A DNA stretch of 64,000 nucleotides from Gammaproteobacteria bacterium (GTDB lineage: Bacteria; Pseudomonadota; Gammaproteobacteria; Eutrophobiales; Eutrophobiaceae). The translations under genes were made by a program, and so were the position numbers. This document shows, in pieces, positions 2,114 to 46,238 of this stretch. Numbering within the stretch: position 1 is the first letter of the stretch; each line of letters opens with the position of its first letter. A model generated the notes under the pieces. That model ran no database searches, was not told the origin of the DNA, and was given only the letters and a program-made list of their open reading frames with translations. Location: NCBI GenBank assembly GCA_028281365.1, contig JANQJZ010000048.1:5238-69237 (forward strand), in the 5' to 3' direction.

Positions 2114-4966
2114 ATGAAAAACACGGTTCCATCGTGCTTATATAGTGGAAATGCATGGTTTGTTGAAGAGTTATATGAATCATATTTAAATAAGCCGGAA
2201 AGTATTGATCCTGAGTGGCGTGATTACTTTGATTCACTCCAGGATGGAACATCAACCAAGGATGTCCCGCATGCGCCTATCCAACAGGCCTATGCAAATG
2301 CTGCAAAACATCGTTCTCAAGGACTTACTGTCCAGGCTCCGGCAGCAGATGCTATCTCCCATCAAAAACAGGCCGCTGTTCTTCGTTTGATCAATGCACA
2401 CCGTTTTAATGGTCATCGCCAGGCCAATCTTGATCCGTTAAAACAATATCAACGTCCGGAAATGCAGGAATTGGAGCCGGCATTTCACGGATTAACTGAA
2501 GAAGATATGGATAGTACTTTTAATACGGGTTCATTATTTGCACCTGATGAAATCACATTACGTGAAATTATCCACATTATAAAAACCACTTACTGTGGTT
2601 GTATTGGTGCCGAATACATGCACATCAATGAAACCGAACAAAAACGGTGGCTACAAAAACGACTGGAAGAACCTTTATCAACTCCGGATTACGATAACGA
2701 AAAACGTATTCGAATTCTGGATCGCGTTATCGACTCTAATGCACTGGAAGAGTATCTACACAAAAAATACGTTGGCCAAAAAAGATTTTCACTCGAAGGC
2801 GGTGAATCATTGATCCCTGCGCTTGATGAAATTGTCCAGTCGGGCGGTATGCAGGATATTAAAGAGATTGTTATTGGTATGGCACACCGTGGTCGATTAA
2901 ATGTCCTGGTCAATATCATAGGTAAAAAACCCAGTGAATTATTTGATGAGTTTGAAGGTAAAACAATTGATACCTTAACAGGCTCCGGTGACGTGAAATA
3001 TCACATGGGATATTCTTCTGATATAAGTACGCCCGGTGGCAGTGTTCACCTGACGATGGCCTTTAACCCGTCTCACCTTGAGATTATCGATCCCGTCGTT
3101 GAAGGATCGGTCCGAGCAAGACAGGACAGGCGTGCTGACTTTGCACATAATGAAGTACTACCCATATTAATCCATGGTGACGCCGCTTTTGCCGGCCAGG
3201 GTGTCATAATGGAAACCTTTAATCTCTCACAAACGCGTGGCTATACCACGGGTGGGACAGTACATATCATCGTTAACAACCAGATTGGTTTTACCACAAG
3301 TGATCCTCTTGATTCGCGCTCATCACTTTACTGTACCGATGTCGCGAAGATGGTCCAGGCACCTATTTTCCATGTGAATGGCGATAATCCTGAAGCTGTT
3401 GTCTTTGCAACCAAGATAGCACTTGATTTCAGGATGGAATTTAACAAAGACGTTGTTATCGACATGGTCTGTTTTCGTAAGCATGGCCACAGCGAAGCAG
3501 ACGAACCGATGGCCACGCAACCCATCATGTATCAACAAGTCAGAAAACATCCAGGTGTACGAAAGCTACATACTGATAAATTAATTGCCGAAGGCATTAT
3601 TACCCAGGAAGGAGCTGATGCCATCGCGAATGAATATATTGATTCATTGGAAAGCAATATGGGTGTTGCCGGTGCGCATGCCGAACACTCCAATCCGAAA
3701 TTTTTGATCGATTATTCACGTTTTACCGGAACCGAATGGACACACGACACCGACACGACAATTAGTGAAAGTTCTGTCTCTAAATTAACGGAAGCCATAA
3801 CAACTATTCCTGATGAATTCGAATTAAACCCTGCGGTTGATAAAATTATTGAATCACGCAAGAAAATGGGCACTGGTGAAATGTTAATGGATTGGGGCTA
3901 TGCGGAAACGATGGCCTATGCATCACTGATAGACGCCGGTTATCCCATACGTATCTCCGGACAAGACAGTGGCAGGGGTACCTTTTTTCATCGACATGCA
4001 GTAATCCATAATATGAAAGACGGTAGAACACACTTACCACTACAGCATATCAAGCAGGGACAACCGAGTTTTCTGGTTATCAACTCGACCCTTTCAGAAG
4101 AAGCCGTGCTTGCTTATGAATATGGATATAGTAGTGCAGAACCGAATTCTCTGGTGTTATGGGAAGCGCAGTTTGGTGACTTTGCCAATGGTGCACAGGT
4201 TGTCTTTGATCAGTTTATCAGTTCTTGTGAAGCCAAGTGGGGACGCTATTGCGGTTTAATCGTTTTCTTACCGCATAGTTATGATGGACAGGGTCCTGAA
4301 CACTCATCAGCAAGACTAGAGCGCTATCTGCAACTTTGTGCCGAACAAAATATGCAGGTTTGTTTCCCCAGCACTGCAGCACAGATGTTTCATATGTTAC
4401 GCCGACAAATTTTACGTCCTTATCGTAAACCACTTATTATAATGAGTCCTAAAAGTTTATTGAGGAGAAAGTTGTCCACATCACCGGTTGATGAATTGAT
4501 TAACGGACGTTTTCAGACTGTCATCGATGAAATTGATGAACTGGATAAAGAAGGAATAACAAGATTACTGGTATGCAGTGGCAAAGTTTATTTTGATCTC
4601 CTTGAACAACGTCGTGAAAACAATATTACGAATATCGCTATTATGCGGGTTGAGCAACTGTTTCCATTTCCAAGAGATGAAGTAAAAGCTATAGTCCATT
4701 CTTACCCTAACCTTAAAGAAGTCGTTTGGGTCCAGGAAGAACCAAAAAACCAGGGTAGCTGGTATTACATGCAATCAAGAGGAACCATGATAGGTTGCCT
4801 GAGTGATCATCATACCTTTGGTTACGCCGGACGTTTCTATTCCGCATCGCCGGCGACTGGATTGATGCCAATACATCTTGCCCAACAAAAAGAATTGGTC
4901 TCAGATGCATTACAACTTGATAAACTTGAAGTAACGACCCATAAGAAACGTAGTACTGCTAATTAA
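2114..4966 (+). CDS. sucA: 2-oxoglutarate dehydrogenase E1
   Basis: KRFSLEGGE, GMAHRGRLN, GDVKYHMG, HGDAAFAGQG, WEAQFGDF motifs. Confidence 0.98.
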   Translation: MKNTVPSCLYSGNAWFVEELYESYLNKPESIDPEWRDYFDSLQDGTSTKDVPHAPIQQAYANAAKHRSQGLTVQAPAADAISHQKQAAVLRLINAHRFNGHRQANLDPLKQYQRPEMQELEPAFHGLTEEDMDSTFNTGSLFAPDEITLREIIHIIKTTYCGCIGAEYMHINETEQKRWLQKRLEEPLSTPDYDNEKRIRILDRVIDSNALEEYLHKKYVGQKRFSLEGGESLIPALDEIVQSGGMQDIKEIVIGMAHRGRLNVLVNIIGKKPSELFDEFEGKTIDTLTGSGDVKYHMGYSSDISTPGGSVHLTMAFNPSHLEIIDPVVEGSVRARQDRRADFAHNEVLPILIHGDAAFAGQGVIMETFNLSQTRGYTTGGTVHIIVNNQIGFTTSDPLDSRSSLYCTDVAKMVQAPIFHVNGDNPEAVVFATKIALDFRMEFNKDVVIDMVCFRKHGHSEADEPMATQPIMYQQVRKHPGVRKLHTDKLIAEGIITQEGADAIANEYIDSLESNMGVAGAHAEHSNPKFLIDYSRFTGTEWTHDTDTTISESSVSKLTEAITTIPDEFELNPAVDKIIESRKKMGTGEMLMDWGYAETMAYASLIDAGYPIRISGQDSGRGTFFHRHAVIHNMKDGRTHLPLQHIKQGQPSFLVINSTLSEEAVLAYEYGYSSAEPNSLVLWEAQFGDFANGAQVVFDQFISSCEAKWGRYCGLIVFLPHSYDGQGPEHSSARLERYLQLCAEQNMQVCFPSTAAQMFHMLRRQILRPYRKPLIIMSPKSLLRRKLSTSPVDELINGRFQTVIDEIDELDKEGITRLLVCSGKVYFDLLEQRRENNITNIAIMRVEQLFPFPRDEVKAIVHSYPNLKEVVWVQEEPKNQGSWYYMQSRGTMIGCLSDHHTFGYAGRFYSASPATGLMPIHLAQQKELVSDALQLDKLEVTTHKKRSTAN

Positions 4967-4981
4967 ATTAAGGAGAAGATC

Positions 4982-6301
4982 GTGCTGGTTGATATTAAAG
5001 TCCCTGTATTAGCGGAATCAGTTGCTGAAGCAACATTAATGACCTGGCAGAAACGTACAGGAGATTCGGTAAAACGCGGTGATAACCTGATTGATATTGA
5101 AACCGACAAGGTCACTCTTGAGGTCTCTGCATTAAATGATGGCGTGATTTCTGAAATTCTAAAAGAAGATGGCGAGATCGTGCAAAGTGATGAAGTAATA
5201 GCACGAATTGATACAGAAGCAACTGCAGAAACAGCCGCACCGGAAAATCCGGAAGCAGCACCGGAACAACAATCACTCCCGGAAATGGATACCAAAGCTG
5301 AAGAAATAGCGGAGCAAGATTTACCTAAATTAAGTCCTGCGGTCAGGAACCTGTTAGAAGAACATCAACTGGATGCAGGCGAGATAATAGCTAAATCGGA
5401 TCGTATCACTAAAGAAGATGTACTTCGTCATATTGAAGGAAAGGCACCGATTCAGGCAACTGCACCTTCAGAAGATAAAGCTGCCGAACCAGCTCCACCT
5501 GCAAGTGCTCCGGAACCAAGCCCGGCGCCTGCAAAAACGGAATCGAACAAAAACCTGACTGAATCTGTCGCGGTACCTGTTTTAACCAGTAGTACAGGTA
5601 ACAGGCCGGAAGAAAAAGTCCCGATGACACGTTTGCGCAAACGTGCAGCCGAGCGGTTACTCAATGCACAACATGAAAATGCAATACTGACGACCTTTAA
5701 TGAAGTCAATATGCAGCCTGTTATGGATATCAGAAGTAAATACAAAGACGAGTTTGAAAAAACACACGGTATTAAACTGGGCTTTATGTCATTCTTTACC
5801 CGGGCTGCGGTTGAAGCATTAAAAAAATTCCCGGTAATTAATGCATCAGTTGATGGTGATAACATCCTTTACCACGGTTACTTTGATATCGGTATTGCTG
5901 TTAGCTCTCCTCGTGGACTTGTTGTTCCTATTGTGCGTAATGCGGACATGCTGCCGTTAGCAGAGATAGAAGCACAAATACGTTCCTATGGTGAAAAAGC
6001 CCGTGATGGTAAATTAACGATTGATGATTTAACCGGTGGGACATTTACCATCACCAATGGTGGTGTTTTTGGATCATTATTGTCTACACCAATAATTAAT
6101 CCACCACAAAGTGCGATATTAGGTATGCATGCGATAAATCAAAGACCAATGGCTGAGAATGGTGAAGTTGTAATCAGACCGATGATGTATCTGGCATTGT
6201 CCTATGATCATCGCATTATTGATGGTCGTGAAGCTGTACAATTCCTGGTTTCAATTAAACAACAACTGGAAGATCCGTCTCGACTTCTATTACAGCTTTA
6301 A
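4982..6301 (+). CDS. sucB: dihydrolipoyllysine succinyltransferase E2
   Basis: Lipoyl domain ETDKV, Ala/Pro linker, catalytic DHRIIDG; GTG start after AGGAGA. Confidence 0.97.
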
Positions 6302-37852: not shown

Positions 37853-38215
37853 GGGGGCGTACTGGCTTCGACGTGGATACGAAACCTGAGGGGCATGCCG
37901 AGGCGCAGATTACCTCGTAAACACAACTGCAAATTTAATAGTTGCCAACGAAGACAACTACGCACTAGCTGCTTAATAACCAGTCATAGTGCCGTCTGCC
38001 TACTGTAGTGCTTGTGCTCGGTAGAACAGGCGTCGACTCACACAAGACCGCGATGAAGCTTGTCCGAGGTAGATTCGTTAAACTTTAATCGGAATCGCTG
38101 TTTGTTTTCCCTGCCGTTCGGGTAGCACTCAGTTAAATTTAAAGAGTCGGCTAAGCATGTAGATCCGATGGCAGAGGATTTGCGGACGCGGGTTCAATTC
38201 CCGCCGCCTCCACCA
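37853..38215 (+). ncRNA. ssrA: tmRNA
   Basis: 5' GGGGGCG pairs with 3' CGCCTCC-ACCA with a G3.U wobble; T-arm GGGTTCAATTCCC; tag ANEDNYALAA* at 37944-37976; TATAAT at 37821; smpB upstream. Confidence 0.98.
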
Positions 38216-38254: not shown

Positions 38255-38593
38255 ACGGCCGGGATTGAGCCCTTGTAGCGGGCCGCATAAATGGATTAGC
38301 GGTACGATTACATGGATGTAATCGGTAGAGTCGAGTCTGGAAGTGCGCAGCCTGCCCTTGGGTACAGAGACCGAGAAAACGTCGGGAAGTGCGTAGCCTG
38401 CCCTTGGGTACACGTTTTCGAAAAAGTAAAATCAACCTAGGAATTTAAATGGAGGTAAATTATAGATGACCGGGAGCGACCAGCAAAGGACGTGCGCGGT
38501 AGAAAATGCAGGAGCATATTTTCGAGGATGTTATACGCTAACTAGAGATTTAAACGGAGGTTAATTTATGGATGGCCGGGAGCGAACCCGCCT
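38237..38593. repeat. repeat cluster after ssrA: three degenerate inverted copies of the tmRNA 3' end and a 28-bp direct repeat
   Basis: GGAGGT...CCGGGA..(A)CC units at ~38237-38272, 38437-38481, 38542-38592; GGAAGTGCG(C/T)AGCCTGCCCTTGGGTACA at 38339-38366 and 38385-38412. Confidence 0.7.
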
Positions 38594-38623
38594 ATGTATG
38601 AAAATTAATTTTATAAATATCCA

Positions 38624-39277
38624 CTATAGTCTAATTATCGACTCTATTATTACTAATAATATTATAAATATAATGAGTGAAATTCGATATTTACACATAA
38701 AAATTTTGATTTTAAAAAATGAACCTTTGACTTCATAGATAATTTCACTAATTGTTGAATATTTATCATGTAAACATACACAAGAATTTTCAACTTTATT
38801 TACAGTTTCAGTTAATTCACTAAGAAATTCATTAATTATTGTGTGTCTTTCATTACGATTTTTAATATGTGCGTTTTCAATATTCAATGTTAATCTAAAT
38901 TTTAATTTTGAAATATCCTCTGTACTTAAAACATTTAATTCATAATCTTTTAATATTTTCGCATACAACTCTATATTTGAAAGATCGTATAAAAATTTAC
39001 GTAATTGAATTCTATTCTTTTGTTTTTTATTGATTTTGCTTGTTATTTCTTCTGGTTTAGTTATTGATACTTCATTCCAAAATTTATAACCATCTTCACC
39101 AAGTTTCTTTAGAAGGTTAATTATTTTACTATGCAGATCCTTTTTTTCTACTCGAAAAAGGATTCGGTTTGAATTCCAAATAAAAATTAACCACCCAAAA
39201 ATAATTAAAGAAGGAATTATATTTGATGAAATAAGTTTATATGTTGAGCAAAATCCATTTATTAATAAATCTAACAT
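38624..39277 (-). CDS. hypothetical membrane protein (N- and C-terminal TM), very AT-rich
   Basis: 217 aa; IIPSLIIFGWLIFIW and ISLIIFIILLVII hydrophobic segments; last gene of a tight 3-gene operon. Confidence 0.75.
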   Translation of the reverse strand: MLDLLINGFCSTYKLISSNIIPSLIIFGWLIFIWNSNRILFRVEKKDLHSKIINLLKKLGEDGYKFWNEVSITKPEEITSKINKKQKNRIQLRKFLYDLSNIELYAKILKDYELNVLSTEDISKLKFRLTLNIENAHIKNRNERHTIINEFLSELTETVNKVENSCVCLHDKYSTISEIIYEVKGSFFKIKIFMCKYRISLIIFIILLVIIESIIRL

Positions 39278-39283
39278 TTCCTT

Positions 39284-39634
39284 TTATTCTGATTCTATTA
39301 AAGGAATATCTCTTTCAATACCATATGCAGCGTTATCTACGACATATTTATAATCTTCAAGGTAGGACTTAAGTTCATGTTTAAACGTAACTTTTGCAAG
39401 TAGCTCTTTTTTATTCATATAACCTCTTCTAATAATGCCACCAAAAGTTTCTTCAATAAAAGAAGGGCCACATAACACATCTTCAAAATCGACAATTACG
39501 TACTCGAAGTCATTCAAAGCAGGCATAATAAAGTCTTCTCTAAATCTTTGCCCATTGTCAGGACCATCTCTTGGATCTCTTCCGTAAGGATCTGTAGAAA
39601 AGTCACTCTTTACATTTATTTTTTTTGTCATCAT
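39284..39634 (-). CDS. STAS-like domain protein (DUF4325-like)
   Basis: GR...GP.NGQRFRE, VIVDFEDV..GPSFIEETFGG pattern typical of stand-alone STAS-like proteins. Confidence 0.75.
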   Translation of the reverse strand: MMTKKINVKSDFSTDPYGRDPRDGPDNGQRFREDFIMPALNDFEYVIVDFEDVLCGPSFIEETFGGIIRRGYMNKKELLAKVTFKHELKSYLEDYKYVVDNAAYGIERDIPLIESE

Positions 39635-39637
39635 TTC

Positions 39638-40696
39638 TTATTTGCGTTCTGTACTGCTGGGAAGTGAAATATTCCATTGTATAAGAGTACCATTAATAGA
39701 GTGTTTCGAGTCGTACATAGTTTCAGATTTTTTGTTTACACTGACATTATCATAAAGATAAGTTCCTTTATTACTGAATATCCATAGTAAACCTTGAGGG
39801 TTATTTTTTGCAAATCTCATAATTCTATCAAGACCGGTTCCTCTGCCACTACCTTCCTGTTCATAACGTGATCTTCTAAACTCTGTTGCTGCTTTAATCA
39901 TAGCACAGTCATTCCCTAACGGTAGAAATTCTGAAACTATTCCTCTCACTTTTTCATAACCTGATTGCTTTGGTAATGTGACAGGAATTCCATGGCCTAA
40001 ATCATATAGTGCAATATGAATTTGATCATTAATTTGATGCCCAAGTACCCACCATCTTTCACCAAATAACCTTAAAAATTTATCTTCAAAATCCTCGTAA
40101 GCATGATTAGTAATGTTTAATAAAGCTTCATGAATTGCTTGATACACAACATTTCTTTTTTCTAAATCCGCTTCTAGCTCACCAGAGTAAAATGTTTTAT
40201 CCATATCAGTAACAACTTTATTGACAGAATGACCTGCATCATGCGCAACACCAGTTCTAATTGGAAGTAAATTTGGAATCGTAATTGCTTCATCAGATAT
40301 ATCTACATCTTCTCTCAAAAAACCTAATGAACTTAATAACTCGTTATGTAAAGGATCTTTTACGTTTATGTATCTAAATCTAACACCTTTATTAAACTGC
40401 TTAATTACCGAAACTGTAGAATGTAAACACAAAGTTGCAGCTGCTGTAATACTTGTTGTATTAACAAAATTAAGTATTATCAAATCAACATCATGTGAAT
40501 TAAAACTTTTAATTTTATTAATAAACCGAAGTGTTTTATCAGCACTTTTTCTGTTATAGAGCGAGAAATCAACAGGTGCTAGAAAAGAATGGCTACGTAT
40601 TATATTTTTTTTATGCTTTGCTTTTTTACTTCTCTTTTGTTCATTCCTTTGTTGTCTAATTACCCATTCTTGTACATCAGGATTAATTTTTTTCAT
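39638..40696 (-). CDS. STAS-like plus GHKL (HATPase_c) ATPase/kinase
   Basis: IILNFVNTTSITAAA (STAS-like); N-box EALLNITNHAY; G1 YDLGHGIP; G2 GRGTGL; terminal GTLIQW. Confidence 0.75.
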   Translation of the reverse strand: MKKINPDVQEWVIRQQRNEQKRSKKAKHKKNIIRSHSFLAPVDFSLYNRKSADKTLRFINKIKSFNSHDVDLIILNFVNTTSITAAATLCLHSTVSVIKQFNKGVRFRYINVKDPLHNELLSSLGFLREDVDISDEAITIPNLLPIRTGVAHDAGHSVNKVVTDMDKTFYSGELEADLEKRNVVYQAIHEALLNITNHAYEDFEDKFLRLFGERWWVLGHQINDQIHIALYDLGHGIPVTLPKQSGYEKVRGIVSEFLPLGNDCAMIKAATEFRRSRYEQEGSGRGTGLDRIMRFAKNNPQGLLWIFSNKGTYLYDNVSVNKKSETMYDSKHSINGTLIQWNISLPSSTERK

Positions 40697-40810
40697 TTAA
40701 ATATCCATATTTATCAGCACAATTTATATATTCATATACTGTATTATGAAACATATTATCAATGATTTTAATATTTATATTAAATAAAATTCAGAATGAA
40801 TCGTATTTCT

Positions 40811-41647
40811 TTAAATTTCAGAAATAATCACTTTAAACTCATCCTTATATTTATTAATTTCGCGTTTTAAATAGCGACTTTGCTCATCTGTTCGTGCATT
40901 TACAACCTTCGCGATAACTAATTTAATTTGTTCTGTATTATGGTCGAGATAGGCATGGTATTTTTCCGTCCTTATTTTATCTCTTTCTTTATACGCATCA
41001 TTAAACTGTTGCTGCCAACCCGGTTCACGATTTAATAATTGCTCTAATGTTGCATACCACTGTTGTCGTTCTTCGAGCCAGGCCTGATCAAATCGTTTAA
41101 AGGATCGTGTTGCTGATTTAATAATGTCTTCCTGTTCATCAGTTAATGGCCCCAAAAATCGACCCAGATTATCACTAAGTCTTTCAGCGCTATCGTTTGA
41201 ATATTCTTCGTCGCTGCGACTCAGGTATTCTTCTTCATTTTCCTTTTGTTTCTCCCACAGATTCATTATTAAAGCTTCAACCTGCTCCTGAGATAAATCT
41301 TCAGTTGTTGTAATAAATAGTTGAATAAATTTATCATCGACCCGGCCTAGTGCGTCCAGTACCTGCTCAGTCCAATCATCAACAATCTTGGCATCGACTG
41401 GTTTTTCAATGTCCGTTTCAATTTGATCCAGGAATTCGATATAACGACTTAACTCTTCATTACGATGCCAACTTAGGACCGTATTCAGATTTTTATCAAA
41501 ATTTACCTGTTGTTCACGATCCAGCTCGACGAAGTCATCAACATACCAATTGATTAATGTATCCAGTCGATTATAAAAAAATGACTGGCTACAGCCGACG
41601 ATTAATAGAATGAATAAAAATGGGGCAAAAAATTTAATGTGCATCAA
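40811..41647 (-). CDS. lipoprotein (DUF6279-like)
   Basis: Lipobox LIVGC; FFYNRLD.LI.WYVDDFV.L...Q and WHR.EEL pattern; helical. Confidence 0.75.
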   Translation of the reverse strand: MMHIKFFAPFLFILLIVGCSQSFFYNRLDTLINWYVDDFVELDREQQVNFDKNLNTVLSWHRNEELSRYIEFLDQIETDIEKPVDAKIVDDWTEQVLDALGRVDDKFIQLFITTTEDLSQEQVEALIMNLWEKQKENEEEYLSRSDEEYSNDSAERLSDNLGRFLGPLTDEQEDIIKSATRSFKRFDQAWLEERQQWYATLEQLLNREPGWQQQFNDAYKERDKIRTEKYHAYLDHNTEQIKLVIAKVVNARTDEQSRYLKREINKYKDEFKVIISEI

Positions 41648-41828: not shown

Positions 41829-42686
41829 ATGCTCAATAAAATCTTCAACAAACCATTGGAACTAAAAATTGGTGACCAGACACTCCAGTTTAATTCTGTT
41901 GCCGAGATTGTATTTTGTCTGGAAGGCAGGACATCTGTTTCTTCTACCAAGCTGGCTGAATTACTCAAAATGCCGATTGATCAGTTAGAAGAGCAACAAA
42001 AAAAGATTGAGGAGATTAATAAATCTCTTCTAACGATGCTTAATGAGATTATTGATAAGCCGGATAATATTGATCGTTCCATGCGTGAACTGGATACCCA
42101 GATTTTTTCACAAGATCACGGTTGGCGGGAAATCATACAGGCATTAAATAAAGTAGAAGGAGGTATCAACGATATTCGTACAGCTGTTTTAACAAAATAT
42201 ATGAAGTATTTGTCGACAGCTGAAGACACCGTTAAACATATCTGCGAAGAAAAGAAACGCTATGCCAGGGATCTTGTTAAAGATGTCCCGGAAGACCTGG
42301 ATGCAACCTGGGCCATCAGCCAACTGCGTAAAGATGCCAAAAAAGAAATTCCCACGGATGATAACTTTAAACAACTCCCTAAAAACCAGAAAGTATCCGT
42401 TAACCTGTCTCCCGGTGAAAAGATTGATATACGTTTGGCATCTTACCCCTGCCAACTTGCCGCGATGAATGACAGTATTAATTTTATCGATAACAATGGC
42501 ACAACAAGCTTAATGAAGGGACAAAATACTATCGGCAGGAGTGTGAAATGTTCTGTACAGATTGATCCGAATCAAAGACATGTATCAAGAAGACATCTGC
42601 ATGTTTTAGTCACCGATGGACATATACTTCAATTAACGGATACTTCTTCGGAAGGGACGTTTATTAACTCTGATTTTATTACATAG
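41829..42686 (+). CDS. FHA-domain protein with an uncharacterised helical N-terminus
   Basis: C-terminal TIGRS...VSRRHL...LTDTSSEGTFIN is an FHA signature. Confidence 0.8.
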   Translation: MLNKIFNKPLELKIGDQTLQFNSVAEIVFCLEGRTSVSSTKLAELLKMPIDQLEEQQKKIEEINKSLLTMLNEIIDKPDNIDRSMRELDTQIFSQDHGWREIIQALNKVEGGINDIRTAVLTKYMKYLSTAEDTVKHICEEKKRYARDLVKDVPEDLDATWAISQLRKDAKKEIPTDDNFKQLPKNQKVSVNLSPGEKIDIRLASYPCQLAAMNDSINFIDNNGTTSLMKGQNTIGRSVKCSVQIDPNQRHVSRRHLHVLVTDGHILQLTDTSSEGTFINSDFIT

Positions 42687-42795
42687 TGCAAAAATTAACT
42701 CACTCCACATATTATAGACTCAATTTCGCAAAATCCCTGATATACCAGCGAATTAGCTGCCCCACCCCTTTGAAATACCGTATGTCATTGAATAA

Positions 42796-42822
42796 TAAAG
42801 TATTTGATTGTCAAGCCGATAT
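42796..42822 (+). promoter_or_regulatory. sigma28 (FliA)-type promoter
   Basis: TAAA-N15-GCCGATAT versus consensus TAAA-N15-GCCGATAA. Confidence 0.6.
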
Positions 42823-43103
42823 GCCGGTTAAGGCCGATTTCGGATAGTTACCGTGTTTGTAACAGGTTCGAAATTGAACCCTTTTTACATTGAATACGAA
42901 GACTTAGCTACTAAACTTTAATAATAGAAAGTGCAAGAGTCGATATGCAGATGACTCAATAAGAGCACTTAACAGAAGTAAGGCGATTTTGAGGTGTTTG
43001 TTAATAAAGTGGATTGATTCGAGAAAGAACCCGGTTCAATCCGTAGTTGGAACTTAAAAATTTATATTGATGATTGTTAACCTGGTTATATGGAGAGTCT
43101 ATA

Positions 43104-44123
43104 ATGAATAACAAACTTGCAGCTAAACGTGAATATGAAAGCAACGAACCCTCAAACTGGATAGAAAGGGTTGCCGAAGCTTTTCTTAATAACAAGATCA
43201 AAAGTAATCTTAAATCAGCTACCAAGGTACATCCTTGTATTATTAATAATCAGCGTGTGTTGGTGTATGAACATGGCCTGCAGGAAAAAAATCCTGAAGC
43301 CTATCAACAGCTAAAGACATATGCTGATAAAAATAGTTTTGGCATTAAAGAAGATCAACGTGTTACCGGTGACAAACCGGTCAAGTTTGAACGACGATTG
43401 GCAGAAAGTTTACCGATGTTATTTCTTGCAAGTGGTATCTTTATGTCCGGCAATACCAACGCTGGCGATATCCCCATGCCGGGTTCTGATTCCGATATTA
43501 AGGTAATGTCTGATGTCGAAGTAACCGCTGAATATGACAGAAATGATCGTGCTTATACCCAGCAGAATGGTAAACGTTTTATTACTAATCCTTATGGTGA
43601 AACCGAATCTATCCTTGCAGTCGCGGCACAAACCAAGGCCCAGGGTGAACTAAAACGTGTTAGTACGCGTGGCATTAAGATGCCTTCGGGTTACGTTGGT
43701 GGATTTATTAATAAATACGAACATACCTTTGCTAATGGCCAGACCTTTAGTTATTACGAAGGTGAAGGCTTTGGTGCCCTTGGTTATCATGCAGATGAAG
43801 GAAAAGTTATTCTTGATGTACTTGCCGGTGGTGGTGCGTTCTCTTCGCCAAAACTTTGGGGACCGTATGATCAATTACTTGGTGACAAGGACAATTCTTC
43901 CATGCATCTGATGATGGGTGACGGTAGCAAGGATGGTATGGGGTTATTAAAAGCATCTTATGCGATCGGTTACACCGCTGTCATGGCTGAAGAAGATTAT
44001 GCAACCTTAGGTAATGCCTATAGTGGTGCTGTCCAGGACACGATGCAGCAACTTGTTGCCAGTGGTGCTACAGGTGATATAAATGTAGCTTCTACCGAAG
44101 ATATTAGCGGAGACAAGATTTAA
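43104..44123 (+). CDS. hypothetical protein: shared N-terminal domain, internal signal-like segment, Gly-rich C-terminal part
   Basis: GGAGAG RBS before ATG 43104; N-domain homologous to that of the next ORF; RR..LPMLFLASGIFMSGNTNA segment. Confidence 0.8.
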   Translation: MNNKLAAKREYESNEPSNWIERVAEAFLNNKIKSNLKSATKVHPCIINNQRVLVYEHGLQEKNPEAYQQLKTYADKNSFGIKEDQRVTGDKPVKFERRLAESLPMLFLASGIFMSGNTNAGDIPMPGSDSDIKVMSDVEVTAEYDRNDRAYTQQNGKRFITNPYGETESILAVAAQTKAQGELKRVSTRGIKMPSGYVGGFINKYEHTFANGQTFSYYEGEGFGALGYHADEGKVILDVLAGGGAFSSPKLWGPYDQLLGDKDNSSMHLMMGDGSKDGMGLLKASYAIGYTAVMAEEDYATLGNAYSGAVQDTMQQLVASGATGDINVASTEDISGDKI

Positions 44124-44171
44124 TTTTTTAGTCATTAAATTTGTTTTCGTCGAATATGATATCGTACAGCT

Positions 44172-45059
44172 ATGGTCAAAGATACCGACGCCCTTGATAA
44201 TCTGAAGCGTATCGAGGCACAAAAACAACCTGGAAACTGGGTGGATCGCATTGTTAACTCAATGCGATCCAAAAAGAAACGGGCCATGGTTCACCCTTGC
44301 GTTATCGATGGCCATCGAACTCTCGTCTATGAACGTGGATTAGCAGAGACTGATCCCCACTCGTTCCAACTGCTGGTTGAATATGCTGACGCATATGGTT
44401 ATCTGCTGAAAGAAGACCAACGTGCTGACTTCCTCGAAGGTGTTAAACGAGTTAGAAATAAAAGTTGTGCGAATGTTATCTCTATCATGGTTCTAACGGC
44501 TGGTCTTATGTCACAAACGGCTTATGCCATCGATGATGATGATCATGACCATGCAGCACATATTGATCCGGATATTACACAGAACAGAATCGAAACGGGT
44601 TATGATTTTAATCTCGATAGTTTTAAGACCCAGGATGAACTGGCAGCAGGATTATTGACCTGGATTAATCAACATTCTTCTTTTGATTACAACATCGACA
44701 AGGTTCCGAAGATTAAAAAGGTATCGGCGCACCAGATTGCTAAAGTGGCATTCGGTGGTGAATTACCTAAAGCAATTAATCCCGAAAGCCTGCAGATTTT
44801 TGGTTTGTATAACTTCAATGAGGAAACTGTTTACCTGCTTGATTCAATTGATCTGGAAACAAACGAAGGCAAAGCGATCCTGCTACATGAGTTAGTCCAT
44901 TTTCTGCAATACCAGACCGGTATTGATAAAGATGCGAAATGCAAGAATGAACTGGAATCGTTGGCTTACGTTCTGGAAGCGAAGTTTCTGGACGCCCATC
45001 ACCATGATCATAACATCAGTATGAGCCATATCTGGAAAGTCAGCCAATGTAAAGTTTAA
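44172..45059 (+). CDS. HExxH metallopeptidase-like protein (DUF6647-like) with the same N-terminal domain and an internal signal-like segment
   Basis: GLY...ETVYL, ILLHELVHFLQ, C...LESLAY; KRVRNK..VISIMVLTAGLMSQTAYA segment. Confidence 0.8.
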   Translation: MVKDTDALDNLKRIEAQKQPGNWVDRIVNSMRSKKKRAMVHPCVIDGHRTLVYERGLAETDPHSFQLLVEYADAYGYLLKEDQRADFLEGVKRVRNKSCANVISIMVLTAGLMSQTAYAIDDDDHDHAAHIDPDITQNRIETGYDFNLDSFKTQDELAAGLLTWINQHSSFDYNIDKVPKIKKVSAHQIAKVAFGGELPKAINPESLQIFGLYNFNEETVYLLDSIDLETNEGKAILLHELVHFLQYQTGIDKDAKCKNELESLAYVLEAKFLDAHHHDHNISMSHIWKVSQCKV

Positions 45060-45163
45060 AAAAGCCGACCTATTTCCTGATTTAAGCCGAGGGCAATTAA
45101 GCAATTCTACGATCAGGACGCTGTTGTAAAAGATATATTAAAAATCTGATGAATGTCTGTGTA

Positions 45164-45667
45164 TCAAGTTGATTGAGAGAGTGAAATTTCTGCAAGGAGT
45201 CCTGTAGTCTGACGTAAACGTAAACTGATTATTTGTGCAATACGCCAGAGTAGTTTCACGGCAAGATTACTATTTTCCTTAACCAATTTGTCAAAATCAT
45301 TACGTGTAATCATTAGAACTTTTGAATCTTTAGATGCAATAGCAGATGCAGAAAGAGGTCTGCCATCAATAATTGCCATTTCGCCAATGGTGCCACCGGC
45401 TATTACATCGGCAATTTTCAAGAACTCACTGGGAGAAGTTTCTTTAAATATTGCCACTTCACCTTCTGCAATAAAACACAAGGAAGCATCTGTACTACCT
45501 TCAGTAAAAATATTTGAACCCGCTTCAGCAGAGTATACCTTGACCCAATTAGCCAGGTTCTCTGCATCAGTATCTTCCAGGTCAGAAAAAAATTGTGTTT
45601 TTTTAATATAACCTTTTACTGTGTCAAATGACGCCGTCCCTTCACTGACTAGTTTCATCTCGGCCAT
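45164..45667 (-). CDS. stand-alone cyclic nucleotide-binding domain protein
   Basis: IFTEG...FIAEGEV...IGEMAIIDGRPLSASAIA; no HTH; ATG 45667 after AAAGGTGA (alternative GTG 45676). Confidence 0.88.
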   Translation of the reverse strand: MAEMKLVSEGTASFDTVKGYIKKTQFFSDLEDTDAENLANWVKVYSAEAGSNIFTEGSTDASLCFIAEGEVAIFKETSPSEFLKIADVIAGGTIGEMAIIDGRPLSASAIASKDSKVLMITRNDFDKLVKENSNLAVKLLWRIAQIISLRLRQTTGLLAEISLSQST

Positions 45668-45794
45668 GTTTATCACCTTTAATTGTTTTTATAATAATAT
45701 AGTGACCATCCATGTCGTGTTTTAACTACATTTTTATAATTGTTTATTTTTAATGATAGTGATACATGCCAATGATGACAACATCATTACTATT

Positions 45795-46238
45795 CTAATT
45801 TAAAGGCATACAACGTTTAGGCAACAAGTCCTTACCAAGATCACTGCGGCAAACCCAATCCAGCTTATTGTCTACGACAACAGGCTTTAACATTACTTTC
45901 CTGTCATTTATATCCTGCTTAACATTGATATGTGGCTTATTCATGAAGATAACTGTTATAACTCCTGGTTCATCCTTACTGACCTCCACCTGTTTAACTA
46001 AAGACTTGCTAAAATCCAGGGGTTCCAGTTTTAATTCCCGTTCTACAGCAACAGAATCGGGTAGTGTTCCTTTCTCATTCCAGTATTTTATTACTGCTAT
46101 TTTATATTTTAATACGAGTGATAATCCTTGAAGCACTTTTGCCTGATCAGTTAAATCAATCTTTTTCTCCGAAGTAAAAATAAAATTCCAGGAAAGAAGA
46201 ATAACAGCCAATATTAATACAATTAGTGTTTTGTACAT
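45795..46238 (-). CDS. pilin-domain protein lacking a class III (prepilin) signal
   Basis: AKVLQGLSL...KIAV..YWNEKGTLP and C-terminal WVC...LPKRC resemble type IVa pilin; no G|FTLIE motif. Confidence 0.7.
   Translation of the reverse strand: MYKTLIVLILAVILLSWNFIFTSEKKIDLTDQAKVLQGLSLVLKYKIAVIKYWNEKGTLPDSVAVERELKLEPLDFSKSLVKQVEVSKDEPGVITVIFMNKPHINVKQDINDRKVMLKPVVVDNKLDWVCRSDLGKDLLPKRCMPLN

What the first reader, a model, noticed from the sequence alone, without database searches (positions are those of the whole stretch)
43104..45059. Two tandem genes share an unrecognised N-terminal domain placed before a signal-peptide-like segment and different C-terminal cargo
Seen: both proteins start with KR...P.NW..R, followed by a gap-free 45-aa block: VHPCIINNQRVLVYEHGLQEKNPEAYQQLKTYADKNSFGIKEDQR versus VHPCVIDGHRTLVYERGLAETDPHSFQLLVEYADAYGYLLKEDQR (24/45 identical by hand count; domain at nt ~43149-43361 and ~44229-44423). 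In both, a basic stretch follows, then a hydrophobic core ending in a signal-peptidase-like site (..GNTNA|GD, ..QTAYA|ID) near residue 120. After that the proteins are unrelated: a Gly-rich domain I do not recognise, and an HExxH metallopeptidase-like domain (DUF6647-like). Known: Sec signals normally lie in the first ~30 residues, and known extensions such as the autotransporter ESPR are short and unlike this. Inference: this is a modular cytoplasmic 'pre-signal' domain with a conserved HPC motif. It could gate or time export, target the proteins, or be released as a signal after cleavage. That would make it a possibly undescribed export or signalling system with swappable cargo.
Basis: partly seen in the sequence, partly recalled or inferred. 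Interest (0 to 1): 0.82.

Follow-up and report, generated by a model that had tools for sequence, protein, structure and literature searches.

The report
DUF3579 domain placed before signal peptides
Two neighbouring genes of a coral-associated marine bacterium carry a small, catalogued but unstudied cytoplasmic domain (DUF3579) directly in front of what looks like an ordinary export signal, and the same module sits in front of several unrelated exported proteins in other bacteria, which is an unusual and undescribed way to build a secreted protein.

Summary
Gene A (43104-44123) and gene B (44172-45059) share only their first ~113 residues (BLASTP E 5e-19; 24/45 identical in the gap-free block). 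Each then has a basic stretch, a short hydrophobic core and an AxA site at residues 120 and 119.

The domain is not unrecognised. It is a divergent DUF3579 (PF12112; NMR structure 2L9D), whose function is unknown.

A profile search found 87 representative proteins. In 57 of the 58 with enough sequence after the domain, a hydrophobic run starts about 14 residues (range 13-40) after the domain ends. The cargoes fall into five kinds:
- an unknown Gly-rich domain (A)
- a DUF6647-like zincin (B)
- a second HExxH family
- one PagP outer-membrane barrel
- one multihaem cytochrome c

Relatives of cargoes A, B and PagP exist with ordinary N-terminal signal peptides. One is a 211-aa paralogue of A in the same genome.

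Best reading: these are Sec preproteins whose signal peptide is preceded by a cytoplasmic DUF3579 domain and is probably cleaved. What the domain does is open. Release of a free DUF3579 coupled to export, and a link to neighbouring FHA proteins, are inferences only.

This is a new variant of a known kind and of moderate to high interest.

The parts
43104..44123 (+). Gene A: DUF3579-like domain, signal-peptide-like segment, then Gly-rich exported domain (339 aa)
   Evidence: ORF and translation. 67 hits at E<=0.001 to its first 125 residues, most of them 330-353 aa (a few are shorter, 193-270 aa).
43104..43361 (+). N-domain of A (residues 1-86), a divergent DUF3579 with the VHPC and EDQR motifs
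   Evidence: PF12112 at 32.8 bits, E 9.5e-8, residues 15-82. 2l9d_A at E 4.9e-5. Profile of A5 against the PDB: E 1.3e-7.
43392..43463 (+). Signal-peptide-like segment of A (residues 97-120): ERR, a ~15-aa hydrophobic core, then NTNA|GD
   Evidence: In 36 aligned homologues the -1 position is Ala in 32 and the -3 position is A/V/T/S/L in 34. The RR pair is invariant, 36/36.
43464..44120 (+). Cargo A: Gly-rich domain with no known family
   Evidence: No Pfam or NCBIfam hit. 50% identical (94/188, E 8e-66) to a 211-aa paralogue on own-genome contig C68:11388-12023(-), which has an ordinary N-terminal signal peptide.
44172..45059 (+). Gene B: DUF3579-like domain, signal-peptide-like segment, then HExxH zincin-like domain (295 aa)
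   Evidence: ORF and translation. 122 hits to its cargo region; the 120 listed are mostly 272-305 aa (six are shorter, 190-268 aa) and the same architecture where PF12112 is recorded.
44172..44423 (+). N-domain of B (residues 1-84), a divergent DUF3579
   Evidence: PF12112 at 24.0 bits by hmmscan, just under the cut-off of 25. 25.8 bits, over the cut-off, in the six-frame genome search. 45% identical to A's domain.
44445..44528 (+). Signal-peptide-like segment of B (residues 92-119): KRVRNK, a hydrophobic core, then TAYA|ID
   Evidence: In 46 aligned homologues the -1 position is Ala in 40 (plus Ser in 2) and the -3 position is A/V/G/T/S in 44.
44529..45056 (+). Cargo B: DUF6647-like minimal zincin domain, with HELVH at residues 239-243 (nt 44886-44900)
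41829..42686 (+). Upstream FHA-domain protein (285 aa). It may be functionally associated; this is an inference from gene order only.
   Evidence: FHA at 32.1 bits. It is one of 6 FHA genes in the genome. FHA or VWA-FHA genes lie directly upstream of A-like genes in L020, L024, L029, L030 and L035.

Best explanation
Genes A and B encode Sec-type secretory preproteins whose signal peptide is not at the N-terminus. It is preceded by a folded DUF3579-type domain of about 90 residues that stays in the cytoplasm.

How it most likely works:
- The basic stretch ((E/D)RR in A, KRVRNK in B) and the short hydrophobic core insert into the inner membrane with the N-terminus inside.
- The C-terminal cargo is threaded to the periplasm. 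Cargo A is an unknown Gly-rich domain; cargo B is a small HExxH zincin.
- Signal peptidase I probably cuts after the conserved AxA (A120|G121 in A, A119|I120 in B). This frees the cargo and leaves the DUF3579 domain attached to the spent signal peptide on the cytoplasmic face.

Shown here: the homology, the architecture, its recurrence with five cargo types, and the existence of cargo relatives with ordinary signal peptides.

Inferred: the topology, Sec use and cleavage.

Speculative: the stub is trimmed by signal-peptide peptidases to give a free DUF3579, so that one cytoplasmic DUF3579 is made per exported molecule. Contact with neighbouring FHA-domain proteins is also speculative.
For: Domain identity:
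- PF12112 and 2L9D match the N-domain.

Recurrence:
- A profile of the two domains finds 87 representatives among 1.84 billion proteins, and the domain is always N-terminal.
- Of the 58 (counting A and B) with at least 45 aa after the domain, 57 have a hydrophobic run starting a median of 14 aa (13-40) after the domain ends. The run free of D/E/K/R/H/N/Q has a median length of 14 aa.
- 53 of the 57 have a basic n-region, and 55 of the 57 pass a loose AxA test that had no control.

Cleavage site:
- The AxA columns are conserved while neighbouring columns vary.

Hydrophobicity:
- The best 19-residue windows score 1.10 (A) and 1.61 (B).
- The true membrane helix of the neighbouring-family VWA-FHA protein scores 2.2-3.7, and that protein's own signal peptide scores 1.64-2.11.

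Orientation:
- Net charge is positive before the core and negative after it: +2/-3 in A and +3/-7 in B.

Cargo relatives with ordinary N-terminal signal peptides:
- The own-genome paralogue of cargo A aligns from its residue 24 to A's residue 128, and a small family resembles it.
- A DUF6647 protein in L063 has one, if it starts at an internal Met.
- PagP-like genes lie in frames of 158-253 aa.

Cargoes that must leave the inner membrane or mature in the periplasm (established knowledge):
- P0139 carries PagP, an outer-membrane barrel (52.3 bits).
- P0077 carries three CxxCH haem motifs (Paired_CXXCH_1, 25.8 bits).

Against an internal start:
- The Val codons at the basic stretch are GTC and GTT, which are not start codons.

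Standalone relatives:
- Standalone DUF3579 proteins end a few residues after the second (D/E)RR, exactly where the hydrophobic core begins in the fused forms.
- The own genome has no standalone copy.
Against: - No signal-peptide predictor and no experiment was available, so export, topology and cleavage are all inferred.
- The stretch free of D/E/K/R has a median of 19 aa and is at least 21 aa in 19 of 57 representatives. Some members could be uncleaved membrane anchors.
- The PagP and cytochrome fusions are single-member clusters seen on one contig each.
- The structure models give low confidence for the hydrophobic segment, and the whole gene A model is poor at pLDDT 47.
- The invariant RR is unusual for Sec n-regions, and TatC is present in the genome.
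- The RNA evidence is one 184-nt metatranscriptome contig inside cargo A.
- Nothing here shows what the N-domain does.
Confidence: 0.55

Rival explanations
1. The hydrophobic segment is an uncleaved signal anchor. A and B would be bitopic inner-membrane proteins (N-terminus in, C-terminus out). The DUF3579 domain would act as a cytoplasmic input or output module and the C-terminal domain as a membrane-tethered periplasmic enzyme or sensor, as in ToxR/CadC-type or anti-sigma-type proteins.
For: The same topology evidence applies as for the best explanation. The D/E/K/R-free stretch is 18 aa or longer in 37 of 57 representatives and 21 aa or longer in 19 of 57. In B it is about 21-23 aa. Membrane-spanning partners with a cytoplasmic FHA domain are encoded next to A-like genes.
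Against: The truly hydrophobic core has a median of only 14 aa, and in many members it is interrupted by D or E at about position 13-14. The AxA is conserved in three cargo families, which an anchor would not need. Cargo relatives use ordinary cleavable signal peptides. A PagP barrel cannot reach the outer membrane while anchored (established knowledge).
Confidence: 0.25
2. The segment is a twin-arginine (Tat) signal, and the cargo is exported folded.
For: RR is invariant in 36 of 36 A-type sequences. The second Arg is invariant (14 of 14) and the first is Arg in 11 of 14 sequences of the third family. TatC is present. Two cargo families are putative metalloenzymes.
Against: The residues after RR do not fit S/T-R-R-x-F-L-K (consensus recalled) and are often charged. 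Window gene B has KRVRNK and no RR. The same (D/E)RR pair occurs in standalone DUF3579 proteins that have no hydrophobic segment, so it belongs to the domain's tail. The A-cargo paralogue has a signal peptide with no basic residue at all. c-type cytochromes and outer-membrane barrels use Sec (established knowledge).
Confidence: 0.07
3. The fusion is an annotation or assembly artefact, or the N-domain is a decaying remnant. On this reading the real proteins start at the signal peptide.
For: Signal peptides are normally N-terminal. No clear ribosome-binding site or promoter was identified.
Against: There is no ATG, GTG or TTG at the basic stretch in either gene. The in-frame domain is conserved, with invariant motifs, in 67 listed homologues of A and 120 of B and in 10 of 401 sampled genomes from 7 families. 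The same DNA is present in an independent coral-reef metagenome at 90-99% identity.
Confidence: 0.03

Closest known systems
Standalone DUF3579 proteins (Pfam PF12112; NMR structure PDB 2L9D, 'uncharacterized protein')
   Same: The domain is the same: W..R near the start, a PC motif, and L...P..Y....FA..N.L.I.EDRR. Many also have a tail with a second (D/E)RR 10-12 residues later.
   Different: Standalone forms are about 90-150 aa, have an extra N-terminal strand region and end right after the tail. They have no hydrophobic segment and no cargo. In the tree the 20 standalone sequences form one side of a branch (SH-aLRT 98) against all 45 fused ones. In 11 of 22 loci they lie next to dksA. Their function is unknown, and full-text searches for 'DUF3579' and 'PF12112' found no papers.
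Anti-sigma factors RsiV and RsiP, cut at site 1 by signal peptidase (PMC4183432, PMC8844934; search listing and first lines of the abstracts seen only)
   Same: It works alike in outline: a cytoplasmic N-terminal domain, a signal-peptide-like membrane segment with a signal-peptidase site, and an extracytoplasmic C-terminal domain. Cleavage leaves a cytoplasmic stub for further proteolysis.
   Different: The N-domain is not an anti-sigma domain. No ECF sigma gene was found among the seven neighbouring ORFs scanned. The C-terminal parts are enzymes or structural proteins, including an outer-membrane barrel and a cytochrome, rather than ligand sensors. Whether cleavage here is regulated or constitutive is unknown.
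ESPR, the extended signal peptide region of autotransporters and two-partner secretion proteins (recalled, not from a call)
   Same: It is a conserved N-terminal extension in front of a Sec signal peptide.
   Different: ESPR is about 25 residues and not a folded domain (recalled). The Pfam scan listed no signal-extension family for either protein at E<=1. The extension here is a folded domain of about 90 aa with free-living homologues.
DUF6647 (PF20352), proposed as a member of peptidase clan MA (PMC11467057, one passage read)
   Same: Cargo B has the HExxH motif, a near-threshold DUF6647 match and a zincin-like predicted fold. Some close homologues carry PF20352 in precomputed annotation.
   Different: The window protein scores 22.4 bits against a cut-off of 24.1. 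Typical DUF6647 genes in this class lie in frames of 144-235 aa without the N-domain (4 of 301 genomes).

Membership tests
DUF3579 (PF12112) | Score at or above the Pfam gathering cut-off (25 bits) | tested here: met
   A scores 32.8 bits and 35.2 bits in the genome search. B scores 24.0 bits by hmmscan but 25.8 bits, over the cut-off, in the genome search.
DUF3579 (PF12112) | Sequence homology to the solved family member 2L9D | tested here: met
   phmmer E 4.9e-5 over residues 14-83. Profile of 36 homologues: E 1.3e-7. The fold itself was not compared, because no separate model of the domain could be made.
Sec-type (signal peptidase I) signal peptide | Basic n-region, hydrophobic core of about 7-15 residues, and small residues at -3 and -1 | tested here: met
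   The test used hand-made rules, not SignalP.
Sec-type (signal peptidase I) signal peptide | Position at the extreme N-terminus | tested here: not met
   The segment starts at residue 97 in A and residue 92 in B.
Sec-type (signal peptidase I) signal peptide | Actual translocation and cleavage | not testable with these tools
   This needs fractionation, PhoA fusions and N-terminal sequencing.
Tat signal peptide | S/T-R-R-x-F-L-K consensus with an invariant RR (consensus recalled) | tested here: not met
   A has ERRLAE. B has KRVRNK without RR. The residues after RR are often charged in homologues.
DUF6647 (PF20352) / zincin metallopeptidase | Gathering cut-off of 24.1 bits | tested here: not met
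   22.4 bits and 23.5 bits. Several close homologues are annotated with PF20352.
DUF6647 (PF20352) / zincin metallopeptidase | HExxH motif and zincin fold | tested here: met
RsiV/RsiP-type anti-sigma factor | Anti-sigma N-domain and an adjacent ECF sigma gene | tested here: not met
   The Pfam scans of A, B and seven neighbouring ORFs listed no anti-sigma or sigma family at their E-value limits.
ESPR (extended signal peptide region) | Match to the Pfam ESPR model | tested here: not met
   It is not among the Pfam hits at E<=1.

The most novel reading that the evidence does not exclude
DUF3579 is an export-coupled cytoplasmic signalling module.

After the cargo is translocated and signal peptidase cuts, the DUF3579-plus-signal-peptide stub would be trimmed by intramembrane or signal-peptide peptidases. 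The product would be almost co-extensive with the natural standalone DUF3579 proteins.

The cell would then receive one free DUF3579 per exported molecule. This 'receipt' could feed into cytoplasmic regulation, possibly through the FHA / Ser-Thr kinase proteins encoded next to A-like genes.

That would be a modular secretion-reporting system with swappable cargo, and nothing like it has been described.
Probability: 0.18. Interest if true: 0.85.

Novelty: new variant of a known kind. Interest (0 to 1): 0.6.

Why it matters
Textbook bacterial signal peptides sit at the very N-terminus. Here a folded domain with free-living homologues is conserved immediately upstream of signal-peptide-like segments. 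It occurs in many proteobacterial proteins and with at least five unrelated exported cargoes.

If cleavage is confirmed, this would be a natural, widespread case of a cytoplasmic domain produced stoichiometrically with protein export. It would also give the first functional handle on DUF3579, a family with a solved structure but no known role.

It bears on genome annotation too. Predictors that look only at the first ~70 residues may call these proteins cytoplasmic or membrane-anchored.

Tried and rejected
Tools that were unavailable or gave nothing:
- The search for related loci on genome contigs gave no answer twice, so I have no organism names.
- Complex prediction of the upstream FHA protein with A's N-domain returned 'no answer', which is evidence neither way.
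- The ESM Atlas search with cargo A gave no usable hit.

Weak or uninformative results:
- The AlphaFold model of gene A was too poor to search (pLDDT 47.3).
- Foldseek against the PDB with the gene B model found no hit at E<=1e-3.
- The homologue search with cargo B returned almost only ~296-aa proteins, so it says nothing about plain DUF6647 proteins.
- The promoter and terminator scan found no more than the shuffles did.
- Rfam found nothing in 42000-45500.

Sequencing runs:
- One 184-nt RNA contig lies in cargo A. Contigs cannot show transcript starts.
- The parts of the stretch without cover in X2-X4 prove nothing.

Ideas considered and rejected:
- An internal start codon at the basic stretch.
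- A Tat signal (see rivals).
- A recent tandem duplication. The two domains are 45% identical, against about 70% between A's N-terminal region and its listed homologues, and each is nearest to proteins of its own cargo type.
- A secretion-related gene context for standalone DUF3579. Its neighbours are dksA, a gluQ-like gene, a HAD hydrolase and an aminotransferase.

Literature:
- Full-text searches for 'DUF3579' and 'PF12112' found 0 papers, and 'DUF6647' found 1.
- A four-term search for internal signal peptides with cytoplasmic domains found 0.
- Subscription journals are not covered by these searches.
Full report
**1. The observation**

The window has two + strand ORFs. Gene A runs 43104-44123 (339 aa from the ATG; a TTG at 43074 is also in frame). 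Gene B runs 44172-45059 (295 aa). They are 48 nt apart.

BLASTP aligns only their N-termini: 40/109 identical, E 5e-19. Nothing after about residue 113 is significant.

The shared region is followed in each protein by:
- a basic stretch (FERR in A, KRVRNK in B);
- a short hydrophobic core;
- a small-x-small site: NTNA|GD after residue 120 in A, and AYA|ID after residue 119 in B.

Net charge is +2 before and -3 after the core in A, and +3 and -7 in B. This is the positive-inside pattern for an N-in orientation.

The Val codons at the start of the basic stretch are GTC (A) and GTT (B). An alternative start that would make an ordinary N-terminal signal peptide is therefore not available.

**2. 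The domain is known, but only as a DUF**

Pfam DUF3579 (PF12112) matches A at 32.8 bits (cut-off 25). It matches B at 24.0 bits by hmmscan and at 25.8 bits in the six-frame genome search.

The only solved relative is 2L9D, a 108-aa 'uncharacterized protein'. It matches at E 4.9e-5 with the single sequence and 1.3e-7 with a 36-sequence profile.

Full-text searches for 'DUF3579' and 'PF12112' found no paper.

The own genome (2.2 Mb, 76 contigs) has no other DUF3579 copy and no standalone one.

**3. Recurrence and modularity**

A profile of the two domains was searched against 1.84 billion representative proteins. It found 87 at E<=1e-3, and the domain always lies near the N-terminus. I analysed these together with A and B, 89 sequences in all.

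- 58 of the 89 have at least 45 aa after the domain.
- 57 of those 58 have a hydrophobic run that starts a median of 14 aa (range 13-40) after the domain ends.
- The stretch free of D/E/K/R/H/N/Q has a median length of 14 aa (range 9-23).
- 53 of the 57 have a basic n-region.
- 55 of the 57 pass a loose AxA pattern, for which I ran no control.
- The other 31 are standalone DUF3579 proteins or fragments.

I clustered the 45 sequences with at least 80 aa of cargo:
- 17 are B-like HExxH proteins.
- 14 belong to a third family. It has a conserved PADALLHELLH motif and four conserved Cys, has no Pfam match, and was not found in the own genome.
- 12 are A-like Gly-rich proteins.
- 2 are singletons.

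The singletons are informative. P0139 carries PagP (52.3 bits, cut-off 24). P0077 carries three CxxCH motifs (Paired_CXXCH_1 at 25.8 bits, cut-off 20.6). Each is a one-member cluster seen on one contig, so they are single observations.

In a sample of 401 genomes of the class, 85 have a DUF3579-like match, and most of these are standalone. After inspection, fused forms occur in 10 genomes from 7 families. Two long open frames, in G317 and G132, turned out to be standalone genes.

A tree was built from 65 of the 89 domains. The 24 fragments or sequences of unassignable cargo were dropped. The 20 standalone sequences fall on one side of a branch (SH-aLRT 98). The fused ones are unresolved among themselves. 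Window A and B are each nearest to proteins of their own cargo type, so the pair is not a recent duplication.

**4. Is the segment a real, cleavable signal peptide?**

Evidence for:
- (a) The conserved core is too short and too weakly hydrophobic for a typical membrane helix. The best 19-residue windows score 1.10 (A) and 1.61 (B). The true helix of the VWA-FHA protein family encoded next to A-like genes scores 2.2-3.7, and that protein's own signal peptide scores 1.64-2.11.
- (b) The -1 and -3 positions are conserved while flanking columns vary. For A-type, -1 is Ala in 32/36 and -3 is A/V/T/S/L in 34/36. For B-type, -1 is Ala in 40/46 and -3 is A/V/G/T/S in 44/46.
- (c) The cargo domains exist elsewhere behind ordinary N-terminal signal peptides.
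  - The own genome encodes a 211-aa paralogue of cargo A on contig C68 (11388-12023, minus strand). It is 50% identical (94/188, E 8e-66), and the alignment starts 4 residues after its signal peptide and 8 residues after A's predicted site.
  - A small family of such proteins exists: 9 hits in all (one is the query itself), of which P0273, P0274, P0275 and P0279 show N-terminal signal-like starts.
  - A DUF6647 protein in L063 has a signal peptide if it starts at an internal Met.
  - PagP-like genes in the class lie in frames of 158-253 aa.
- (d) An outer-membrane barrel must be released from the inner membrane, and c-type cytochromes mature in the periplasm after Sec export (established knowledge).

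Evidence against:
- The stretch free of D/E/K/R has a median of 19 aa and is at least 21 aa in 19 of 57, so some members could be anchors.
- No predictor or experiment was available.
- The structure models are uninformative for this segment.

**5. Sec or Tat?**

RR is invariant in 36/36 A-type sequences. In the third family the second Arg is invariant (14/14) and the first is Arg in 11/14. TatC is present in the genome.

Against Tat:
- The residues after RR do not fit the Tat consensus (recalled).
- Window gene B has no RR.
- The A-cargo paralogue's signal peptide has no basic residue.
- Standalone DUF3579 proteins without any hydrophobic segment carry the same EDRR, 10-12 residues, (D/E)RR tail.

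The RR therefore looks like part of the domain's own tail. The fused proteins begin their hydrophobic core exactly where standalone proteins end.

**6. The cargoes**

H239, E240 and H243 are invariant. The DUF6647 match is just under threshold. A published analysis proposes DUF6647 for peptidase clan MA (PMC11467057, one passage read).

Cargo A has no family match and no usable model.

**7. Gene context**

The tandem A+B pair is conserved in three other genomes of the family: L022, L023 and L026.

A second context holds a single A-like gene directly downstream of an FHA-containing gene and upstream of birA-coaX.
- It occurs in four genomes of the family (L020, L024, L029, L030). Here the upstream gene is a VWA-FHA protein.
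- It also occurs in a 71% GC genome of another family (L035). Only an FHA domain was detected in the upstream gene there.
- L034 has birA downstream, but its upstream ORF has no family match.

The VWA-FHA protein has a signal peptide, a VWA domain, a strong membrane helix and then the FHA domain. Its topology is therefore the mirror image of the A-like protein's.

In the own genome that backbone lies on contig C13 without an A-like gene. The window pair is instead preceded by another FHA protein, one of 6 in the genome.

Other A-like genes sit next to a DUF815 ATPase. The three other tandem pairs are preceded by a small unknown gene. The FHA link is therefore recurrent but not universal, and it rests on gene order alone.

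Standalone DUF3579 genes lie next to dksA in 11 of 22 loci. This gives no clear functional hint.

**8. Mechanism and verdict**

Most likely (0.55), these are Sec preproteins with a cytoplasmic DUF3579 'pre-signal' domain. The cargo is exported, signal peptidase I cuts at the AxA, and the DUF3579 domain remains on the cytoplasmic side attached to the spent signal peptide.

The main rival (0.25) is an uncleaved anchor.

The closest working analogues are the anti-sigma factors RsiV and RsiP, which are cut at site 1 by signal peptidase (listing and first lines of the abstracts only). Neither an anti-sigma domain nor a sigma gene was found here.

The boldest reading still open is that the stub is trimmed to a free DUF3579. 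The cleavage of spent signal peptides by RseP and SppA is recalled, not taken from a call. Protein export would then be reported to the cytoplasm.

The DNA occurs in coral and coral-reef metagenomes. The only RNA evidence is one 184-nt contig in cargo A.

Novelty: a new variant of a known kind. Interest: 0.6.

Noticed in passing
window 37853-38215 (+), then 38500-41000: There is a tmRNA gene (tag VANEDNYALAA), followed directly by a stretch of very low GC (24-30%, against ~38% nearby). That stretch holds three minus-strand ORFs, including a 352-aa protein with a weak HATPase_c match. This could be an island inserted at ssrA.
   Followed up: partly
own genome G000, many contigs: The Pkinase family gives 15 matches and there are 6 FHA-domain genes in a genome of only 2.2 Mb. 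That is an unusually rich Ser/Thr phosphosignalling set for a small gammaproteobacterial genome.
   Followed up: no
window 41829-42686 and L020:3477-4373: In this FHA protein family the protein ends inside the FHA model (positions 2-51 of 67 matched). The domain appears C-terminally shortened in all members seen.
   Followed up: no
P0142 (465 aa), P0091 (596 aa), P0115 (494 aa): Some A-like proteins are longer than the rest. P0142 ends in a ChaC-like domain (43.6 bits). P0091 and P0115 carry the Gly-rich cargo domain twice.
   Followed up: partly
L043 (G150:C15) 4927-5638: Two standalone DUF3579 genes (116 and 113 aa) lie in tandem next to dksA.
   Followed up: no
L038, L040, L041, L042: Short A-like genes (271-316 aa) in three other families have a divergently oriented DUF815 AAA ATPase as neighbour. 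This was confirmed by Pfam in 3 of the 4 loci; L042 was not scanned.
   Followed up: partly
window 45795-46238 (-) and 45164-45676 (-): A type IV pilin-like gene and a standalone cyclic-nucleotide-binding protein lie just downstream of gene B on the opposite strand. They are syntenic in related genomes.
   Followed up: no
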